Source: a virus. Taken from it: 36,898 bases of DNA. The translations under genes were made by a program, and so were the position numbers. A model generated the notes under the pieces. That model ran no database searches. It saw nothing but the letters and a program-made list of their open reading frames with translations, and was not told the DNA's origin. The DNA is taken from the IMG/VR virus record IMGVR_UViG_3300044846_001855, positions 1-36,898 of that record, one strand, 5' to 3'. Shown here piece by piece: positions 1 through 36,898 of the stretch; positions within the stretch are counted from its first letter, which is position 1; each line of letters opens with the position of its first letter.

Positions 1-120
1 CACAATATCGAGGTCTAGCAGCTTTGTTTGCGGTAGCTCTTGGCCCCGTAGGGCCATAGAACGAGCGCGAGAGAGATATTCCCCACGCTCTAACCGCTTG
101 TCAGGGCGGTGTTGTTTCAT
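1..120 (-). CDS. 5' fragment (40 codons) of the HTH gene, a duplicate of 36772-36891 created by the end overlap. It is not a separate gene.
   Basis: The ATG at 118-120 (minus) has the same sequence as the ATG at 36889-36891. The ORF runs off the window start. Confidence 0.8.
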   Translation of the reverse strand, partial: MKQHRPDKRLERGEYLSRARSMALRGQELPQTKLLDLDIV

Positions 121-127
121 GCAAATA
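1..127. repeat. Terminal direct repeat copy 1, identical to 36772-36898. This is an end overlap of a circular or circularly permuted genome assembly.
   Basis: Read directly: both copies run cacaatatcgaggtctagcagctttgtttgcgg...ggcggtgttgtttcatgcaaata, and I compared them base by base. Confidence 0.9.
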
Positions 128-3394: not shown

Positions 3395-3480
3395 AATACA
3401 TCCGCCAATATCTGATCTACCGCCGCGCCGGTTTCACGGTGATCAACTCTCTCAAACGTGCTTGGAAGGTGTGGAAATGA
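3391..3480 (+). CDS. Mini-ORF of 29 aa (MKYIRQYLIYRRAGFTVINSLKRAWKVWK), translationally coupled at both ends
   Basis: My own translation. Its ATG overlaps the upstream stop (ATGA at 3391-3394) and its TGA overlaps the downstream ATG (ATGA at 3477-3480). It is below the ORF-track size cutoff. Confidence 0.4.
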   Translation: MKYIRQYLIYRRAGFTVINSLKRAWKVWK

Positions 3481-4127
3481 GCAATAAAGCCCTATGGGAT
3501 AGCGTCAAGGTTACAGACCCAAGCGCGGTAAAGCCCATCACAGGCAAGAGCTACAAGGGCGACAGCCCTAAGCCTTACTGGCTGATTGAACGCGCTACAG
3601 ACGTGTTTGGCCCTATTGGAATCGGCTGGGGTGTTGTGGTGAAGTCTGAGCGCTTTGAGCGTATGAGCGATACAGACGTTTTGCACGTTGCTGTAGTGTC
3701 CGTCTGGTATGTGCATAACGGTGTGCGCTCGGAAACCTTCGATCAAATGGGCGGCACAAAAGCCGCTTACATGACAAGCAAGGGCGTGTTGATGGTGGAT
3801 GAAGACGCCGGTAAAAAATCAGTGACTGATGGCATGGTCAAATGTCTGTCAATGATTGGTTTTGCTGGTGACATTTTCAGCGGTTTGTGGAATGACTCAA
3901 AGTATGTTGATTGGGCGCGTGAGCAATACGAGCCACCACAAAAGAAAGATCAAAAACTACAAGAGCTGCAAGAGAAGGCAATCAGCATCATTGCGCACGT
4001 CAAGGGCGGCAATGCGCGAGATGAGGCGCAAGCCCTGTCTAAGCTGAATGAGAAGGCTCTAAACGCCATTTGGGAACTGCTTGACGCAGAGACACAAGAC
4101 AAGTTATCGGAGGCTTGGCCAGCATGA
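3477..4127 (+). CDS. Putative Rad52/Sak-like single-strand annealing protein (216 aa)
   Basis: The motif PYWLIERATDVFGPIGIGWG resembles the Rad52-family motif (..FG..GW). The later DEDAGKKSVTDGMVKCLSMIGFAGDI resembles the conserved C-terminal SSAP block. The gene sits in synteny with Gp157-like and SSB genes. Confidence 0.65.
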   Translation: MSNKALWDSVKVTDPSAVKPITGKSYKGDSPKPYWLIERATDVFGPIGIGWGVVVKSERFERMSDTDVLHVAVVSVWYVHNGVRSETFDQMGGTKAAYMTSKGVLMVDEDAGKKSVTDGMVKCLSMIGFAGDIFSGLWNDSKYVDWAREQYEPPQKKDQKLQELQEKAISIIAHVKGGNARDEAQALSKLNEKALNAIWELLDAETQDKLSEAWPA

Positions 4128-4627
4128 CCGCGCTTTACAACCTTGCCAATCAGTATCTAGAGCTTGCTAATACGCTTGCTAACGGCGATTTTGACGCCGA
4201 GACAGTGGCAGACACCATCGAGGCCAGTGGCATCACTGATGAGCTATCCACAAAGGCGCAAGCCTTGGAATATGTCGCCCGTAGCTCTGAGGCTCACAAT
4301 GATGCTATTGATGCGGAGATTGAACGACTCAAGGCACTCAAAGAGCAGCGCACCAAGATAGCCGCAAACGTGCGCAAGTACATCTACGACAATATGCAAC
4401 GGATGCAGATTGAAAAGATTACCTGCCCACTGTGCGAAATGTCGATTGTGAAGAACCCGCCAGCGGTGGAAATGTACGACGCCATGAGCATACCTGCGGA
4501 CTACATGCGACAGCCTGACACGCCGCCGCCACAGCCCGACAAGGTGAAGATTCTGAAAGCACTCAAAGCCGGTGAAGAAGTGACCGGCGCACGACTAACC
4601 CAAACCACGCGACTGCGTATTAAATAA
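4124..4627 (+). CDS. Siphovirus Gp157-like protein (167 aa)
   Basis: An N-terminal coiled coil is followed by the C-terminal block SIVKNPPAVEMYD..IPADYM...PDKVKILKALKAGEEVTGARLTQTTRLRIK, typical of the Gp157 family. There is an ATGA overlap and SD GGAGG. Confidence 0.75.
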   Translation: MTALYNLANQYLELANTLANGDFDAETVADTIEASGITDELSTKAQALEYVARSSEAHNDAIDAEIERLKALKEQRTKIAANVRKYIYDNMQRMQIEKITCPLCEMSIVKNPPAVEMYDAMSIPADYMRQPDTPPPQPDKVKILKALKAGEEVTGARLTQTTRLRIK

Positions 4628-4638
4628 AGGAAACCAGA

Positions 4639-5112
4639 ATGAACAACATCACAATAGCCGGTCAACTTGGACGCGATGCGGAAGTGCGATACCTTCCGAA
4701 TGGCGACGCAGTGGCTAACTTCAGCGTTGCTGATTCGCAGGGCAAAGACAAGACCACTATCTGGTGGCGTTGCCAGTTGTTTGGCAAACGCGCTGAGTCG
4801 CTGTCGCAATATCTGACTAAGGGTCAATCCGTCACCGTGTCTGGAAACATCACAGAGCGCACCTATCAAAAGGATGGCGTAGAAAAGACGGCGATGGAAA
4901 TTCGTGTATCTGACGTTGCGTTGCAGGGTGGTCGCAAGGATGATTCACAACCGGCACCGCGCCAAGCTGCACCAAGCCAAGCACCACGGCCAGCACCTAG
5001 CCGCCAAGCGCCTGCGCCTCGGGGGTCACAGGGCAGCGGGTTTTCGGATATGGATGACGACATCCCATTCCGCGACCCTATGGCATATCGCGGCCATCAC
5101 TGGATTATCTGA
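4639..5112 (+). CDS. ssb: Single-stranded DNA-binding protein (157 aa) whose acidic DDDIPF tip is internal
   Basis: OB-fold N-terminus (MNNITIAGQLGRDAEVRYLPNGDAVANFSVA...WWRCQLFGKRAE), a Pro/Gln/Ala-rich linker and FSDMDDDIPF followed by 13 extra residues. Confidence 0.9.
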   Translation: MNNITIAGQLGRDAEVRYLPNGDAVANFSVADSQGKDKTTIWWRCQLFGKRAESLSQYLTKGQSVTVSGNITERTYQKDGVEKTAMEIRVSDVALQGGRKDDSQPAPRQAAPSQAPRPAPSRQAPAPRGSQGSGFSDMDDDIPFRDPMAYRGHHWII

Positions 5113-5124
5113 GGGTAAACACCT

Positions 5125-5289
5125 ATGGAACCAATCGACCCTCGCCTATACACTTTCTTGGAGGACGTTAAAGCAAACGTTCTACAAGCCAAACCAATCG
5201 AGGCACTGAGGGCGATTGCCCTTGATGCCCTACTACTTGCACAGGAGTTAGAAAATGGACAAGAGCGATCTGATAGTGATGAGGGCTAG
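5125..5289 (+). CDS. Candidate small ORF (54 aa, MEPIDPRLYTFLEDVKANVLQAKPIEALRAIALDALLLAQELENGQERSDSDEG)
   Basis: My own translation. A GAGGG lies 9 nt upstream. The sequence looks helical, but third-position GC is low. Confidence 0.35.
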   Translation: MEPIDPRLYTFLEDVKANVLQAKPIEALRAIALDALLLAQELENGQERSDSDEG

Positions 5290-5338
5290 TTTCCTCGCGG
5301 GTGTGGTTACTGTTTTGCTTTTGGTTTGGGGGAAGTGA
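5255..5338 (+). CDS. Candidate 27-aa hydrophobic peptide (MDKSDLIVMRASFLAGVVTVLLLVWGK)
   Basis: Strong SD AGGAG 7 nt upstream. The stop TGA (5336-5338) shares its last base with the ATG of the next gene (5338). Confidence 0.4.
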   Translation: MDKSDLIVMRASFLAGVVTVLLLVWGK

Positions 5339-5733
5339 TGACTGATCGAGAGCTACTAGAGAAAGCGGCTAAGGCTGCGGGGGTTTTCCTTACTCCAGAG
5401 ACGCTAAAAGAAGCGCTACCAAATTTGGAGTGGGACGAAGATTTAGAGACTTATCACACCCCTGGCGGCATGTCCGGCGCAGTTTTTTGGCGCGGCTATT
5501 CAGGGGAAATCAGCGGAACAGAACGAGAAGAATGGAACCCACTCACAGACGACGGCGACGCGCTGCGGCTGGCTCATGGGCTGAATGTCCCTGTATCTAT
5601 AGATATATCCAATGGATTGACAACGGTGTCAGGCTGGACTTTTGATATAGACGAACCACATGGAAATGACCCACTCGCCGCCACCCGCCGCGCCATAGTG
5701 AGAGCAGCAGCGGCTATCGGTGAGGCAATGTGA
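5338..5733 (+). CDS. Conserved phage hypothetical protein (131 aa)
   Basis: The ATG is internal to track ORF 5326..5733, whose first codon is TTG. The motif WNPLTDDGDALRLA recurs in small phage early proteins (from memory). Confidence 0.7.
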   Translation: MTDRELLEKAAKAAGVFLTPETLKEALPNLEWDEDLETYHTPGGMSGAVFWRGYSGEISGTEREEWNPLTDDGDALRLAHGLNVPVSIDISNGLTTVSGWTFDIDEPHGNDPLAATRRAIVRAAAAIGEAM

Positions 5734-26224: not shown

Positions 26225-26350
26225 TCACCATACCATGAATTGAGCGAACCAAATCATAAACCGATATGCCGCATATCCTGCGACACATCCAGCGGCAATG
26301 ACTGCGATTGTGAGTGCGGCGCTTACTGCGTTGATTGCTGTGTTTGACAT
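26225..26350 (-). CDS. Candidate 41-aa membrane peptide (MSNTAINAVSAALTIAVIAAGCVAGYAAYRFMIWFAQFMVW), first ORF of the late operon
   Basis: My own translation. It has a near-perfect SD (AGGAGGAAAGA-ATG). Confidence 0.55.
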   Translation of the reverse strand: MSNTAINAVSAALTIAVIAAGCVAGYAAYRFMIWFAQFMVW

Positions 26351-26582
26351 TCTTTCCTCCTGTTGATTATTAGCCCTCGTCTTTCCGAGGCGTCACCGAG
26401 CGTCTATCCAGAATAACCCCGCAGCGGGAGGCCGTGTTAACTGATGGGTGCGCGAGTGATCTCAGCGCGGCTACTTTGTTTGTTTGGCAGAAGTGATTAA
26501 AAATCTAAGCCCGTTCCATCAATCAAACCGCCTGTCCTTTAGCTGCATCAACGTTAATTAATGCCAAGCGGCTTGATTCATG

Positions 26583-26737
26583 GTGTTATCAAAGCGGGCA
26601 GGGCTTGATACCTGCTTGGTCAACTGTCGGGCAACTTTTACAAGCCAGTCCCCAAGGTCGCATCCTTGGATCATACCTTCCCCTTTCGGGTACCCCGCAG
26701 GCTTGCGTGTCCTTCCACGCCGCCGCTTTGATAACAC
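26583..26737 (-). ncRNA. Candidate structured RNA domain in the late-operon leader: a 15-bp closing stem plus four internal helices
   Basis: P1 is 26583-26597 paired with 26723-26737 (a perfect 15 bp). Internal hairpins lie at 26598-26615, 26652-26669, 26681-26690 (GAAA loop on the minus strand) and 26705-26720. Helix 26641-26646/26700-26705 is also present. There is no convincing ORF or SD. Confidence 0.4.
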
Positions 26738-26832
26738 ATCCATTCTCAAAATTGCGCTATGTTTTCAGGCTCGGCGCTTTTGATGCTTGCACTGCCAAAA
26801 CAATCGGGCTGTCAGTGGTCGCACTTGAGAGA

Positions 26833-26861
26833 ATTGTCTAGTCTAGGATTGAGACTATCGG
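26833..26861 (-). promoter_or_regulatory. Candidate late promoter: -10 GACAAT (26838-26833, minus), with palindrome TAGTCT-N7-AGACTA (26839-26857) occupying the spacer and a weak -35
   Basis: Read directly. It shares CTAGACAAT with the promoters at 2752-2760 and 30539-30547. Confidence 0.25.
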
Positions 26862-26887
26862 AGGGAGATAATGAGCCGCCCTTTGTT

Positions 26888-27193
26888 CTATTTTAGCACT
26901 TCTGCTGCTTTTAAAGCGCCTGTTTCGCCATCAAAAGTCAGTTGAAGGTTGCGATTTTCATCGGTTCCAAAGCACCACGCAAATGAACAGTGACGTCCAT
27001 ACCCGTAAACCATTGCAAGCACCACAACATCAGGCTTAGGCTCTGGCTTGATGCGGTACTCGGTATTTAGGCTCCATTCTGGAGAGTAATCTCCAACGTC
27101 CATCCATTCCTCTTGTCCATTAGGTCTGAATTGAATTTGATGACCATCAGCCCAAGCCTTAATGATCTCTGCGTGTTTGTGTGGTGTTTTCAT
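26888..27193 (-). CDS. Hypothetical phage protein (101 aa), last gene before the late leader
   Basis: ATG with SD GGAGAG. The N-terminal HKHAEIIKAWADGHQIQ pattern recurs in phage early proteins (from memory). Confidence 0.7.
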   Translation of the reverse strand: MKTPHKHAEIIKAWADGHQIQFRPNGQEEWMDVGDYSPEWSLNTEYRIKPEPKPDVVVLAMVYGYGRHCSFAWCFGTDENRNLQLTFDGETGALKAAEVLK

Positions 27194-36625: not shown

Positions 36626-36891
36626 GGGATATGACTGCCTGTTTCATACGATAGGGCCTTTTCTATCGTGCGAACGTGAACCCCGTATTGCTTGGCCAGC
36701 GCTTCATTGCTTAGGTTCTCGCGGATGTGTTTGCGCAGGTTCTCGCGCTGTTTCGCGGCGCTGCGGATGGTCACAATATCGAGGTCTAGCAGCTTTGTTT
36801 GCGGTAGCTCTTGGCCCCGTAGGGCCATAGAACGAGCGCGAGAGAGATATTCCCCACGCTCTAACCGCTTGTCAGGGCGGTGTTGTTTCAT
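36622..36891 (-). CDS. HTH DNA-binding protein (89 aa), downstream of the helicase-methylase across the contig junction
   Basis: NEALAKQYGVHVRTIEKAL is a clear HTH. Its ATG overlaps the stop of the methylase gene in the duplicated copy (117-120). Confidence 0.7.
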   Translation of the reverse strand: MKQHRPDKRLERGEYLSRARSMALRGQELPQTKLLDLDIVTIRSAAKQRENLRKHIRENLSNEALAKQYGVHVRTIEKALSYETGSHIP

Positions 36892-36898
36892 GCAAATA
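36772..36898. repeat. Terminal direct repeat copy 2 (identical to 1-127)
   Basis: Read directly. Confidence 0.9.

What the first reader, a model, noticed from the sequence alone, without database searches (positions are those of the whole stretch)
26351..26887. 537-bp ORF-poor late leader containing a multi-helix RNA-like domain closed by a perfect 15-bp stem
This is the only long stretch of the genome without a credible gene, and it separates the early/middle genes from the late operon. A perfect 15-bp inverted repeat (26583-26597 gtgttatcaaagcgg / 26723-26737 ccgctttgataacac) encloses 125 nt that are themselves densely self-complementary:
- hairpin 26598-26615 (GCAGG/CCTGC);
- helix 26641-26646 with 26700-26705 (CAAGCC/GGCTTG);
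- inside that helix, hairpin 26652-26669 (CCAAGG/CCTTGG);
- also inside it, 26681-26690, which on the minus strand is CCC-GAAA-GGG (a GNRA tetraloop);
- hairpin 26705-26720 (GCGTG/CACGC).
The GNRA loop and an extra G-U pair appear only in the minus-strand (late mRNA sense) reading. Further hairpins lie at 26374-26389 (just before the first late SD) and at 26449-26467. The architecture resembles a junction-type functional RNA rather than a simple terminator; no U-tract follows P1. Possible roles are a cis-acting processive antitermination element (as with HK022 put RNAs), a TerS recognition (pac) structure, a ribozyme or processing element, or a stable phage sRNA. I do not recognise it as any known RNA family.
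Basis: partly seen in the sequence, partly recalled or inferred. Interest (0 to 1): 0.7.

Follow-up and report, generated by a model that had tools for sequence, protein, structure and literature searches.

The report
Swappable tRNA-like RNA cassette in phage
The 155-base stem-closed fold is really there, but related phages lack it or carry a different one at the same spot, so it is an optional tRNA-like non-coding RNA module from a so far undescribed kind of variable cassette array, not an essential switch for the late genes.

Summary
The perfect 15-bp inverted repeat (26583-26597 / 26723-26737) and every listed hairpin are present. It is the only perfect inverted repeat of at least 13 bp, with arms up to 260 nt apart, in this complete 36.8-kb P22-like phage genome.

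The interpretation needs revising. A relative about 95% identical lacks exactly 26583-26736 (empty site GGATG|CATGAATC). Other relatives carry, at the same junction, cassettes with the same ends but unrelated interiors, or a different cassette type. So the domain is dispensable and exchangeable. That argues against an antiterminator, a pac site or a required processing element.

Across six distinct versions, one in the unrelated Curvibacter phage P26059A, the terminal stem and the 3' hairpin covary. That hairpin is a tRNA T-arm stacked directly on the stem (GGTTCGAGCC in relatives). No version reaches Rfam's tRNA thresholds.

The cassette is one unit of a hypervariable array of stem-closed modules. 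G·U pairs far outnumber A·C, which indicates RNA in the gene-sense strand. The array occupies the slot where one related phage has true tRNA genes.

Best reading: an accessory tRNA-mimic small RNA, probably cut out at its long stem. Function is untested.

The parts
26583..26737 (-). Cassette A: a 155-nt stem-closed tRNA-like RNA module. The segment absent from relatives is 26583-26736.
   Evidence: It is absent from L121/L001, L122, L123 and L126, where the empty site reads GGATG|CATGAATC. It is replaced by other alleles or cassette types in L087/97/98/101, L099, L102, L124, L120 and L125.
26723..26737 (-). 5' strand (RNA sense) of the 15-bp terminal stem, GUGUUAUCAAAGCGG.
   Evidence: The core ATCAAAGC/GCTTTGAT is shared with Curvibacter phage P26059A, and the outer and inner pairs covary.
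26583..26597 (-). 3' strand of the terminal stem, CCGCUUUGAUAACAC.
26705..26720 (-). 5' hairpin GCGUG-GAAGGA-CACGC. It sits in the D-arm position and has GG in its loop.
   Evidence: Identical in the L087 group and L099. Analogous hairpins with GG in the loop occur in L102, L124 and P26059A. The D-arm analogy is an inference.
26616..26704 (-). Allele-specific core. It contains the CAAGCC/GGCUUG helix, the CCAAGG hairpin and the CCC-GAAA-GGG hairpin.
   Evidence: The helices are present, but this interior is not homologous to the interiors of the other alleles. It shows no significant complementarity to the rest of the genome.
26598..26615 (-). T-arm-like hairpin GCAGG-UAUCAAGC-CCUGC, directly abutting the 3' strand of the terminal stem.
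   Evidence: Relatives have ACAGG-TTCGAGC-CCTGT, GCAGG-TTCAATT-CCTGC, GTGGG-TTCAAGT-CCCAT, GCTGG/CCAGC and GTAGG/CCTGC. Three of the five pairs change on both sides, and the two pairs next to the loop are invariant G-C.
26738..26870 (-). Highly conserved non-coding leader upstream of the cassette site. It ends in a -10-like hexamer GAGAAT followed by GGATG.
   Evidence: Identity to relatives is 88-98%, while the neighbouring genes are 70-81% identical. Covarying hairpins or dyads were found. Relatives read TGTGAGAAT, an extended -10-like motif. Its role as a promoter or regulatory site is inferred.
26516..26582 (-). Conserved hairpin H2, (C)CAUGAAUCAAGCCGCUUG ... CAGGCGGUUUGAUUGAUGG, immediately 3' of the cassette site.
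   Evidence: Present in all relatives, including those with an empty site. It has 22 pairs, 98% of cells are paired, and 2 pairs change on both sides ((pair I1)).
26442..26521 (-). Module X, bounded by UGAUGG ... CCAUCA. It contains hairpin 26449-26467 (GCGCG-CUGAGAUCACU-CGCGC).
   Evidence: Conserved in the six closest relatives. The hairpin has counterparts GCCAG/CTGGC, GCCGG/CCGGC and GCCGG/CCGGT with an AGATCAG loop, each just before the CCATCAAC junction.
26370..26440 (-). Cassette F: a terminator-like hairpin (26417-26429, CCCGCUGCGGGG then UUAUUCU) plus hairpin 26374-26389 (CCUCG-GAAAGA-CGAGG).
   Evidence: Part of it (window 26393-26440) is about 90% identical to a 48-nt stretch of unrelated Curvibacter phage P26059A, where it follows the A-like cassette. 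It is also present in L126 and L123.
26348..26366 (-). Shine-Dalgarno GGAGG (26356-26360) and ATG (26348-26350) of the first late ORF, a 41-aa membrane peptide.
   Evidence: The same ...CAACAGGAGGAAGAATG ending closes the array in L120, L123, L125 and L126.

Best explanation
Window 26583-26737 is an optional, exchangeable non-coding RNA cassette.

It is transcribed in gene sense within the leader of the late operon. The RNA folds as a tRNA-like module with four elements:
- a 15-bp terminal stem;
- a T-arm-like hairpin stacked directly on that stem;
- a 5' hairpin with a GG loop in the D-arm position;
- an allele-specific core where a tRNA would have its anticodon and variable arms.

It is one unit of a hypervariable array of stem-closed cassettes (A, B, D, G and 'C/X' modules) joined by short junction motifs (CYATCA.. 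/ ..TGATGG / CCATCAAC). In this phage lineage the array fills the slot upstream of terminase where a related phage carries genuine tRNA genes.

Proposed mechanism. This part is inferred, not shown:
1. The long terminal duplex is a processing signal. RNase III is the most likely enzyme. tRNA-processing enzymes might also recognise the T-arm/stem stack.
2. Processing releases a stable small RNA.
3. That RNA acts in trans as a tRNA mimic, for example a decoy for a host factor or defence nuclease that binds tRNA.
4. Alleles are gained, lost and swapped between co-infecting phages by recombination in the very conserved flanks (the 120-nt leader and hairpin H2).

Shown here: presence/absence and allele replacement; covariation of the stem and T-arm; a strand bias of wobble pairs; occurrence in unrelated phages; no match to a known family.
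Inferred: transcription, processing and the trans-acting decoy function.
For: 1. Dispensable and exchangeable.
- L121/L001 is 94.6% identical to the window over 6.6 kb and encodes an identical TerL protein. It lacks exactly 26583-26736. L122, L123 and L126 are also empty at this site.
- L087/97/98/101, L099, L102 and L124 have cassettes with the same ends but unrelated interiors.
- L120 and L125 have a different cassette type at the same junction.

2. RNA-type structural constraint.
- On six distinct versions, 98% of cells pair and 8 of 21 pairs change on both sides. None of 500 shuffles reached this, and partners slid by 1-3 columns pair in only 34-47% of cells.
- In the other cassettes the inner 12-15 bp of the closing stems differ completely in sequence yet stay paired.

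3. Strand. G·U outnumber A·C 22 to 3 in closing stems beyond the shared outer 6 bp (binomial p about 8e-5, though the stems are not fully independent).

4. tRNA likeness.
- The 3' hairpin is a canonical T-arm in L102, L124 and P26059A (GGTTCGAGCC, GGTTCAATTCC, GGTTCAAGTCC) and abuts the terminal stem.
- ARAGORN at default settings calls the P26059A copy a 99-nt tRNA.
- Sub-threshold Rfam matches: tRNA at 16.3 bits and tRNA-Sec at 17.6 bits.
- A search for a T-arm stacked on a terminal stem of at least 12 bp found only this family in 3.8 Mb of fetched DNA.

5. Context.
- L078, whose TerL is 79% identical, has tRNA-Thr and tRNA-Met in the same slot upstream of TerS.
- In P26059A the array directly follows tRNA-Arg and contains TGGTATAAT promoter-like motifs and a terminator-like hairpin. 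The published description of that phage reports a tRNA nucleotidyltransferase gene (PMC5964084).
- In L174 the array sits between genes of the opposite orientation. In L220 it follows a TTGACA-N17-GATATT motif. Both suggest the arrays are RNA loci in their own right.

6. No mobility or RNA enzyme is encoded in the phage.
Against: - There are no expression, end-mapping or processing data. Transcription and excision are inferred.
- The window's own allele has an 8-nt UAUCAAGC loop rather than a canonical 7-nt T-loop. It scores nothing against Rfam tRNA models, and ARAGORN finds it only with relaxed thresholds and a forced 48-nt 'intron'.
- Only six distinct versions are known, and most compensatory changes in the terminal stem come from one of them (P26059A). 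The alignment used for counting joined the two ends with an artificial linker.
- G·T mismatches are also tolerated in DNA hairpins, so a strand-specific single-stranded DNA role is not excluded.
- No target of the proposed decoy is identified, and no complementarity to the phage genome was found.
- High turnover is equally what a selfish or neutral insertion would show.
Confidence: 0.4

Rival explanations
1. A selfish or neutral palindromic insertion (MITE/ERIC/Correia-like) that landed in a permissive intergenic hotspot. Under this reading its fold is a by-product of its inverted ends and it does nothing for the phage.
For: - It has 14-15-bp perfect terminal inverted repeats and a presence/absence polymorphism with clean boundaries at the stem base.
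- Related pieces occur in unrelated phages.
- Cassette content turns over extremely fast among genomes about 95% identical.
Against: - There is no target-site duplication.
- No transposase, integrase or reverse transcriptase is encoded in the phage.
- A scan of 185,579 species' genomes with both arms found no other copy. The two Polynucleobacter matches lie in coding sequence whose translation resembles a HipA-like kinase (read by eye, no domain search), and the rest are scattered across unrelated taxa and have no similarity to the window. The window holds a single copy.
- Alleles keep the stem and T-arm by compensatory changes while their interiors diverge, and wobble pairs are strand-biased. 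That points to selection on an RNA fold, not on transposase-binding ends.
Confidence: 0.2
2. A cis-acting element of the late mRNA leader. It could be an RNase III processing site, a 5' stabiliser or an insulator that tunes stability or translation of the downstream late transcript. The different alleles would be equivalent 'structured spacers'.
For: - It lies between a conserved promoter-like leader (-10-like GAGAAT 7 nt upstream of the junction) and the first late gene.
- It has a long perfect duplex of the size RNase III recognises. The B cassettes carry a conserved 2x2 internal loop reminiscent of T7 RNase III sites (the comparison rests on my own knowledge).
Against: - Close relatives with the same late genes do without it.
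- In L174 the same kind of array lies antisense to both neighbouring genes. In L220 it runs into a convergent gene, so it is not a leader there.
- The tRNA-like T-arm is unnecessary for a simple duplex signal.
Confidence: 0.2
3. A decaying tRNA pseudogene left over from a tRNA island, with no present function.
For: - It occupies the tRNA slot.
- It has a T-arm and acceptor-like stem and gives sub-threshold tRNA scores.
- tRNA-like fragments lie elsewhere in the arrays, for example GTAGCTCAGTTGGTTAGAGC...GCAGGTTCGAGTCCTGC in L099.
Against: - A 15-bp stem that is perfect or compensated, together with a maintained T-arm, in six diverged versions is not what decay predicts.
- The terminal stem is twice the length of an acceptor stem, and no allele keeps an anticodon arm.
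Confidence: 0.08
4. A cis-acting processive antitermination RNA (like HK022 put) or part of a Q/qut-type late switch.
For: It lies in the late leader downstream of a conserved regulatory-looking region, and a weak terminator-like hairpin lies further downstream at 26417-26429.
Against: - It is absent or replaced in relatives that keep the same leader and late operon.
- No Q-like protein was detected upstream.
- If any part of the 537 bp has this role, it is the conserved leader at 26738-26870, not the stem-closed domain.
Confidence: 0.03
5. A DNA signal for packaging (pac/cos, TerS recognition) or a self-cleaving ribozyme.
For: It lies upstream of terS, and an HNH endonuclease gene sits about 2 kb upstream. 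It is a compact multi-helix fold.
Against: - It is dispensable in close relatives.
- Related arrays in P26059A lie in the replication module, far from terminase.
- Wobble pairs are strand-biased.
- No ribozyme family matches at permissive thresholds.
- The interiors are not conserved, so there is no catalytic core.
Confidence: 0.03
6. It encodes the 63-codon Arg-rich protein (26558-26749, minus strand).
For: An ORF exists.
Against: It has a TTG start and no Shine-Dalgarno sequence. In the L087 group the matching frame stops within the cassette, in L102 it continues with an unrelated sequence and is shorter, and it is missing from L099, L124 and all empty-site relatives.
Confidence: 0.01

Closest known systems
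Phage tRNA islands in late-gene leaders (for example the tRNA genes downstream of Q/pR' in Stx-converting lambdoid phages; from my own knowledge)
   Same: - Same genomic slot, between the regulatory region and the late or packaging genes.
- A related phage (L078) has tRNA-Thr and tRNA-Met there.
- The P26059A array starts with a real tRNA-Arg.
- It has a T-arm stacked on a terminal stem.
   Different: - No anticodon arm.
- The terminal stem is 15 bp rather than 7.
- Scores are below the tRNA model thresholds, or zero.
- The interior is allele-specific and up to 89 nt long.
Bacterial Y RNAs of the YrlA type (tRNA-like module plus a long stem formed by the 5' and 3' ends; Rfam YrlA; from my own knowledge)
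   Same: The overall architecture is similar: a long terminal duplex closing a module with T-arm-like and D-arm-like hairpins. Both are small non-coding RNAs, and YrlA-type RNAs are sometimes phage-borne.
   Different: - No Rfam match of any kind.
- No Ro60/Rsr gene among the window's annotated proteins.
- The stem is perfect and lacks the bulged Ro-binding site.
RNase P/PNPase-processed regulatory RNAs of phages (P1/P7 c4, P4 CI) and the T4 stable RNAs in its tRNA cluster (from my own knowledge)
   Same: These are small structured RNAs cut out of a longer phage transcript. They have tRNA-like features, and their variable loops differ between related phages.
   Different: - No match to the Rfam C4 family.
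- No complementary target sites were found in the genome.
- Processing is untested.
Miniature palindromic insertion elements (MITEs, ERIC, Correia/NEMIS)
   Same: About 150 bp, with perfect terminal inverted repeats, presence/absence between close genomes, an intergenic co-transcribed location, and a fold into a long RNA hairpin.
   Different: - No target duplication.
- Single copy, with no family in sequenced bacterial genomes.
- The ends covary rather than being sequence-conserved, and the interiors are unrelated.
RNase III processing hairpins of T7-type phages, and HK022 put RNAs
   Same: Structured elements within phage polycistronic transcripts. The duplex length is suited to RNase III. 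The position in the late leader resembles put.
   Different: Those elements are conserved and needed in cis. This one is optional and interchangeable, and it carries a tRNA-like T-arm.

Membership tests
tRNA (Rfam RF00005 / RF01852) | Score at or above the curated covariance-model threshold (full cloverleaf) | tested here: not met
   Window: no hit even at E<=10. P26059A copy: 16.3 bits against a threshold of 29. L124 copy: tRNA-Sec 17.6 bits against 47. L102: none. ARAGORN at default settings finds nothing in the window.
tRNA (Rfam RF00005 / RF01852) | T-arm (5-bp stem, 7-nt TTCRANN loop, two G-C pairs next to the loop) abutting the acceptor stem | tested here: met
   Canonical in L102, L124 and P26059A. 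The window, L099 and L087 have an 8-nt TATCAAGC loop. Three of five pairs covary and two G-C pairs are invariant.
tRNA (Rfam RF00005 / RF01852) | Conserved anticodon arm and a 7-bp acceptor stem followed by a discriminator base and CCA | tested here: not met
   The interiors are non-homologous. The stem is 15-17 bp. The stem is followed by CAUG or UAUG, not NCCA.
tmRNA | tRNA-like domain plus a tag reading frame and pseudoknots | tested here: not met
   ARAGORN and Rfam find none. One 'permuted tmRNA' call in L102 appeared only at relaxed thresholds and is judged spurious.
Bacterial Y RNA (YrlA) | Match to the family model, and association with an Rsr/Ro60 gene | tested here: not met
   No Rfam hit. 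The proteins scanned against PHROGs or Pfam show no TROVE/Ro-like hit. Several ORFs remain without any hit.
HK022 put-type antiterminator RNA | Conserved cis element required for read-through, located just downstream of the promoter | tested here: not met
   The element is absent or replaced in relatives that keep the leader and the late operon. The functional assay itself cannot be done with these tools.
MITE / palindromic insertion element | Terminal inverted repeats | tested here: met
   14-15-bp perfect terminal repeats.
MITE / palindromic insertion element | Target-site duplication, and multiple dispersed copies | tested here: not met
   Empty versus filled site shows no duplication. There is one copy in the window. 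No genuine copy was found in one genome from each of 185,579 species. In viral contigs it occurs only at this locus, plus one copy in P26059A-type phages.
Intrinsic terminator | GC-rich hairpin followed by a U-tract | tested here: not met
   The stem is followed by CAUGAAUC. The scan finds only a weak terminator-like site further downstream, at 26429-26417.
Self-cleaving ribozymes / group I or II introns | Conserved catalytic core; for introns, the characteristic boundary nucleotides | tested here: not met
   No Rfam hit at E<=10. The interiors are not conserved. The unique boundaries G|UGUU...ACAC|C do not fit group I (U before the 5' splice site, G at the intron's 3' end) or group II (GUGYG...AY) rules (the rules are from my own knowledge).
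Retron ncRNA / integron attC | Adjacent reverse transcriptase (retron) or integrase with R''/R' core sites (attC) | tested here: not met
   No reverse transcriptase or integrase among the window proteins scanned. The ends GTTATCA/TGATAAC do not fit GTTRRRY/RYYYAAC.

The most novel reading that the evidence does not exclude
Freshwater Burkholderiales phages of at least four unrelated lineages carry a previously undescribed class of hypervariable, horizontally exchanged arrays of stem-closed, tRNA-derived RNA cassettes ('RNA morons'). The lineages are this P22-like group, the 84-kb Curvibacter phage P26059A type, and the contigs behind L174 and L220. The cassettes would be excised into small tRNA-mimic RNAs that act as decoys or antidotes against host tRNA-directed defences or tRNA-binding factors. 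The window's 155-nt domain would be one allele of such a counter-defence RNA.
Probability: 0.25. Interest if true: 0.8.

Novelty: new variant of a known kind. Interest (0 to 1): 0.55.

Why it matters
Phage accessory ('moron') regions are normally read as protein-coding cargo. Here the variable cargo in a late-leader hotspot is non-coding: a set of interchangeable, stem-closed, tRNA-like RNA modules, shared between unrelated phages and maintained by compensatory substitutions.

If these RNAs are processed and active, they would add an RNA layer to phage-host conflict or to late-gene control. They would join phage tRNAs that rescue cleaved host tRNAs and RNA anti-CRISPRs. They would also offer a compact natural scaffold (long stem plus T-arm elbow) for expressing small RNAs.

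There is a practical point too. The 'tRNA-Pyl' reported for Curvibacter phage P26059A is most likely one of these cassettes rather than a pyrrolysine tRNA. Gene finders and tRNA finders will keep mis-annotating or ignoring such loci.

If the cassettes instead prove inert, the locus is still a clear example of a recombination hotspot held between two ultra-conserved non-coding anchors.

Tried and rejected
- Rfam: gathering threshold on the whole window and on 11 related loci; E<=10 on the window region, L121, L124, L102 and the P26059A region. Only noise and sub-threshold tRNA or tRNA-Sec matches came back.
- ARAGORN: nothing at default settings in the window or close relatives. Relaxed settings force an unconvincing cloverleaf with a 48-nt 'intron', which I rejected as evidence for a real tRNA.
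- Metagenome scan with a flank pattern: added only a duplicate of L125.
- Genome scan with both arms: 25 hits. The two Polynucleobacter hits fall in coding sequence that reads like a HipA-type kinase; the rest are in unrelated taxa and show no similarity to the window, so I treat all as chance. No chromosomal family exists.
- Extra viral scans:
  - Single arm: mostly chance matches, plus the six informative loci.
  - Both arms: the same six loci.
  - T-loop plus stem core: 120 hits, none with the architecture.
  - Junction 15-mer: mostly chance, but it yielded L171 and L174.
- BLAST of the P26059A array against cultured phages: only its tRNA-Arg finds relatives.
- Antisense-target idea: the longest match of the cassette interior elsewhere in the genome is 11 nt, which is chance level.
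- Sigma-70 promoter scan of the window region: no site. The -10-like GAGAAT reading is mine and remains an inference.
- Replication-slippage deletion: rejected, because there is no microhomology at the boundaries.
- Integron attC analogy and 8-bp 'target duplication' of CCATCAAC: considered and dropped. There is no integrase, the core sites do not fit, and the units lack inverted ends.
- Literature searches: no description of such arrays. One large survey of viral structured RNAs mentions tRNA-like candidates only in general terms (PMC10690425).
Full report
**Setting**

The window is a complete, circularly assembled phage genome with a 127-bp terminal repeat. Its morphogenesis gene order is P22-like: small membrane ORFs, TerS, TerL, portal, scaffold, coat, head-completion proteins, ejection proteins, tailspike and endolysin, running on the minus strand from 26350 down to 5854. 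Upstream, at 26888 and beyond, lie small unknown genes, an HNH endonuclease and the replication genes. The 537-bp gap therefore does precede the late block. A small plus-strand block at 3462-5733 (exonuclease, Gam-like, SSB) shows that not all genes share one strand.

- The 15/15 inverted repeat and all listed hairpins are at the stated coordinates.
- It is the only perfect inverted repeat of at least 13 nt, with arms up to 260 nt apart, in the genome. By my arithmetic about 0.01 would be expected by chance.
- The segment folds far better than shuffled controls on either strand (z = -4.3 and -4.8).
- Rfam finds nothing at curated or permissive thresholds. ARAGORN finds nothing at default settings.

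**The decisive result is comparative**

Scans of viral contigs with TerL, one stem arm and a conserved flank motif gave 13 loci that share the non-coding flanks.

- L121/L001 is 94.6% identical to the window over 6.6 kb and encodes an identical TerL protein. Its sequence runs ...GAGAATGGATG|CATGAATCAAGCC..., so window 26583-26736 (154 nt, the whole stem-loop bar one base) is missing. There is no target duplication and no microhomology.
- L122, L123 and L126 have the same empty junction.
- The L087 group, L099, L102 and L124 have a cassette at the same junction. It has the same ends (GTGTTATCAAAGCGG..., ...GGTATCAAGCCCTGCCCGCTTTGATAACAC or variants) but interiors that do not align.
- L120 and L125 carry a different cassette type (GTGTTACGCATGCGG...CCGCAGCCGCAACAC).

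The stem-closed domain is therefore optional and interchangeable among phages that keep the same leader and late genes. This is hard to reconcile with a cis-acting antiterminator, a pac site or an obligatory processing element. The 63-codon ORF is not conserved either.

**What is conserved within the cassette**

Six distinct versions are known. One lies in the unrelated 84-kb Curvibacter phage P26059A (CTATCATCAAAGCATCG...CGGTGCTTTGATGATGG). It came to light because window 26393-26440 matches that phage.

I joined the two ends of each version with an artificial linker, aligned them and counted pairs for the terminal stem and the 3' hairpin:
- 98% of cells pair;
- 8 of 21 pairs change on both sides;
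- none of 500 shuffles reaches this;
- partners slid by 1-3 columns pair in only 34-47% of cells.

The caveat is that there are only six sequences, and most of the stem's compensatory changes come from P26059A.

The 3' hairpin is a tRNA T-arm. It reads ACAGG-TTCGAGC-CCTGT in L102, GCAGG-TTCAATT-CCTGC in L124 and GTGGG-TTCAAGT-CCCAT in P26059A, with two invariant G-C pairs next to the loop. It abuts the 3' strand of the terminal stem as a T-arm abuts an acceptor stem. The window allele has GCAGG-UAUCAAGC-CCUGC, an 8-nt loop. All versions have a 5' hairpin with GG in its loop where a D-arm would be. The D-arm analogy is my inference.

A search for 'T-arm stacked on a terminal stem of at least 12 bp' over 3.8 Mb of fetched DNA finds only this family.

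**Is it a tRNA? No.**

- The P26059A copy is called a 99-nt 'tRNA-Pyl(cta)' by ARAGORN and was reported as such in the phage's description (PMC5964084). It scores only 16.3 bits against Rfam tRNA, where the threshold is 29.
- L124 scores 17.6 bits against tRNA-Sec, where the threshold is 47.
- The window and L102 score nothing.
- No anticodon arm is conserved. The stem is 15-17 bp. No CCA follows it.

It is tRNA-like, or tRNA-derived, rather than a decoding tRNA.

**The cassette is one unit of a larger, very plastic array**

Downstream of the junction every relative has hairpin H2 (window 26516-26582). H2 has 22 pairs, 98% paired cells and two pairs with changes on both sides.

After H2 comes a variable series of modules joined by the motifs CYATCA....TGATGG and CCATCAAC:
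- B cassettes (CCATCACGCATGCGGATTG...CAGTCCGCAGCCGTGATGG, with a conserved 2x2 internal loop);
- D cassettes (CTATCAAG, then a 12-15-bp stem of arbitrary but self-complementary sequence, then CTTGATGG);
- a G cassette;
- 'C/X' modules that end in a 5-bp hairpin with an AGATCAG loop. The window's 26449-26467 hairpin is one of these, with covarying counterparts GCCAG/CTGGC and GCCGG/CCGGC.

Genomes about 95% identical differ in which units they carry.

The same architecture occurs elsewhere:
- in P26059A, directly after a true tRNA-Arg, with TGGTATAAT promoter-like motifs and a terminator-like hairpin;
- in L174, antisense to both neighbouring genes;
- in L220, after a TTGACA-N17-GATATT motif.

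L078, whose TerL is 79% identical, has genuine tRNA-Thr and tRNA-Met in the same slot upstream of TerS.

**Strand and molecule**

In 16 closing stems, beyond the shared outer 6 bp, G·U pairs outnumber A·C 22 to 3 on the gene-sense strand. The stems are not all independent. This, together with stems that differ completely in sequence yet stay paired, indicates selection on an RNA fold in the sense strand. A strand-specific single-stranded DNA role is not formally excluded.

**Mobility**

- The phage encodes no integrase, transposase or reverse transcriptase.
- There is no target duplication.
- A scan of one genome from each of 185,579 bacterial and archaeal species with both arms gives no genuine copy.
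- The flanks are unusually conserved: the 120-nt leader is 88-98% identical where neighbouring genes are 70-81%.

I therefore infer that alleles are exchanged by homologous recombination in these anchors during co-infection, rather than by transposition.

**Mechanism (inferred)**

The most economical reading is an accessory small RNA. It would be transcribed with, or at the start of, the late transcript. The junction lies 7 nt after a -10-like GAGAAT, which reads TGTGAGAAT in most relatives, although the generic promoter scan finds no site. The RNA would be released by cleavage in its long duplex, most likely by RNase III, and would act in trans as a tRNA mimic.

Rival readings keep substantial weight because nothing about expression or phenotype is known. 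They are a selfish palindromic insertion, a cis-acting stabiliser or processing site, and a tRNA pseudogene.

If any part of the 537 bp is a late-gene control element, it is the conserved leader at 26738-26870. That leader has covarying hairpins or dyads that could equally be RNA helices or palindromic protein-binding sites.

**Novelty**

No Rfam family and no paper found in two literature searches describes these cassettes or arrays. The kind of thing, a phage-borne tRNA-like small RNA in a tRNA-island slot, is known. The stem-closed, interchangeable, arrayed form appears to be new.

Noticed in passing
window 26738-26870 (minus strand): The non-coding leader upstream of the cassette site is more conserved (88-98%) than the flanking genes (70-81%). 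It contains covarying hairpins or dyads: AGUCU..AGACU with C-G<->U-A, and GCGC..GCGC <-> GCCC..GGGC <-> GCAG..CUGC. It ends in a -10-like GAGAAT (TGTGAGAAT in relatives). It is probably the real late-gene control region. Whether it acts as RNA or as a protein-binding DNA site is unresolved.
   Followed up: partly
window 26516-26582 (minus strand): Conserved 19-bp-stem hairpin H2, immediately 3' of the cassette site. It is present in every relative, including those with an empty site. It keeps a conserved G·G mismatch and two G·U pairs, and two of its pairs are compensated.
   Followed up: yes
window 26393-26440; L128 (KY981271) 2501-2548; L126: A 48-nt piece containing a terminator-like hairpin (CCCGCUGCGGGG + UUAUUCU) is about 90% identical between this podovirus and the unrelated 84-kb Curvibacter siphovirus P26059A. 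In P26059A it directly follows the A-like cassette.
   Followed up: partly
L128 2570-2668 (Curvibacter phage P26059A, KY981271): The published 'Pyl-tRNA' of this phage is an A-type cassette with a 17-bp terminal stem, and it scores below the Rfam tRNA threshold. The annotation as a pyrrolysine tRNA is very likely an artefact of ARAGORN's naming of CTA anticodons. The phage is also reported to encode a tRNA nucleotidyltransferase (ORF59 in the publication).
   Followed up: partly
L102, L123, L125, L126, L087, L174 ('C' modules between TGATGG and CCATCAAC): The loops of the two hairpins in these modules are complementary (GGCUGA with AGAUCAGCA, 5 bp). In L174 both sides have changed (GAUUGA with AGAUCAGUA). 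This suggests a kissing-loop or elbow-like tertiary contact.
   Followed up: no
L087/L097/L098/L101, just 3' of their cassette (about 190 nt inserted within the 5' arm region of H2): A small ORF (MKPEDKKDLSQFLRISETPPKYRICALCLEEVERETYDQHMRDHGYEILEVTPMK, with a C..C...H...H pattern) sits where the window has only the 7-codon remnant ATGAATCAAGCCGCTTGGCATTAA.
   Followed up: no
L078 3176-3251 and 3450-3527: A phage whose TerL is 79% identical carries genuine tRNA-Thr(tgt) and tRNA-Met(cat) genes in the slot upstream of TerS that is occupied by the cassette array in the window.
   Followed up: yes
B-type cassettes in L087, L102, L120, L121, L125, L126: All B cassettes keep a 2x2 internal loop (CA opposite AG or CC) at the same depth in a 19-bp stem. 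This resembles the internal loops of T7 RNase III sites.
   Followed up: no
window 1-127 and 36772-36898: A 127-bp direct terminal repeat shows that the window is a circularly closed assembly of a complete genome of about 36.77 kb.
   Followed up: yes
window 3462-5733 (plus strand): An exonuclease, a Mu Gam-like protein, an SSB and one unknown gene are encoded on the plus strand, opposite to the rest of the genome.
   Followed up: partly
L121/L001 (contig IMGVR_UViG_3300020044_002642): The contig ends exactly at AGTCTCAATCC..., inside the conserved leader (window about 26856). This could be an assembly break or a physical genome end. It was not examined.
   Followed up: no
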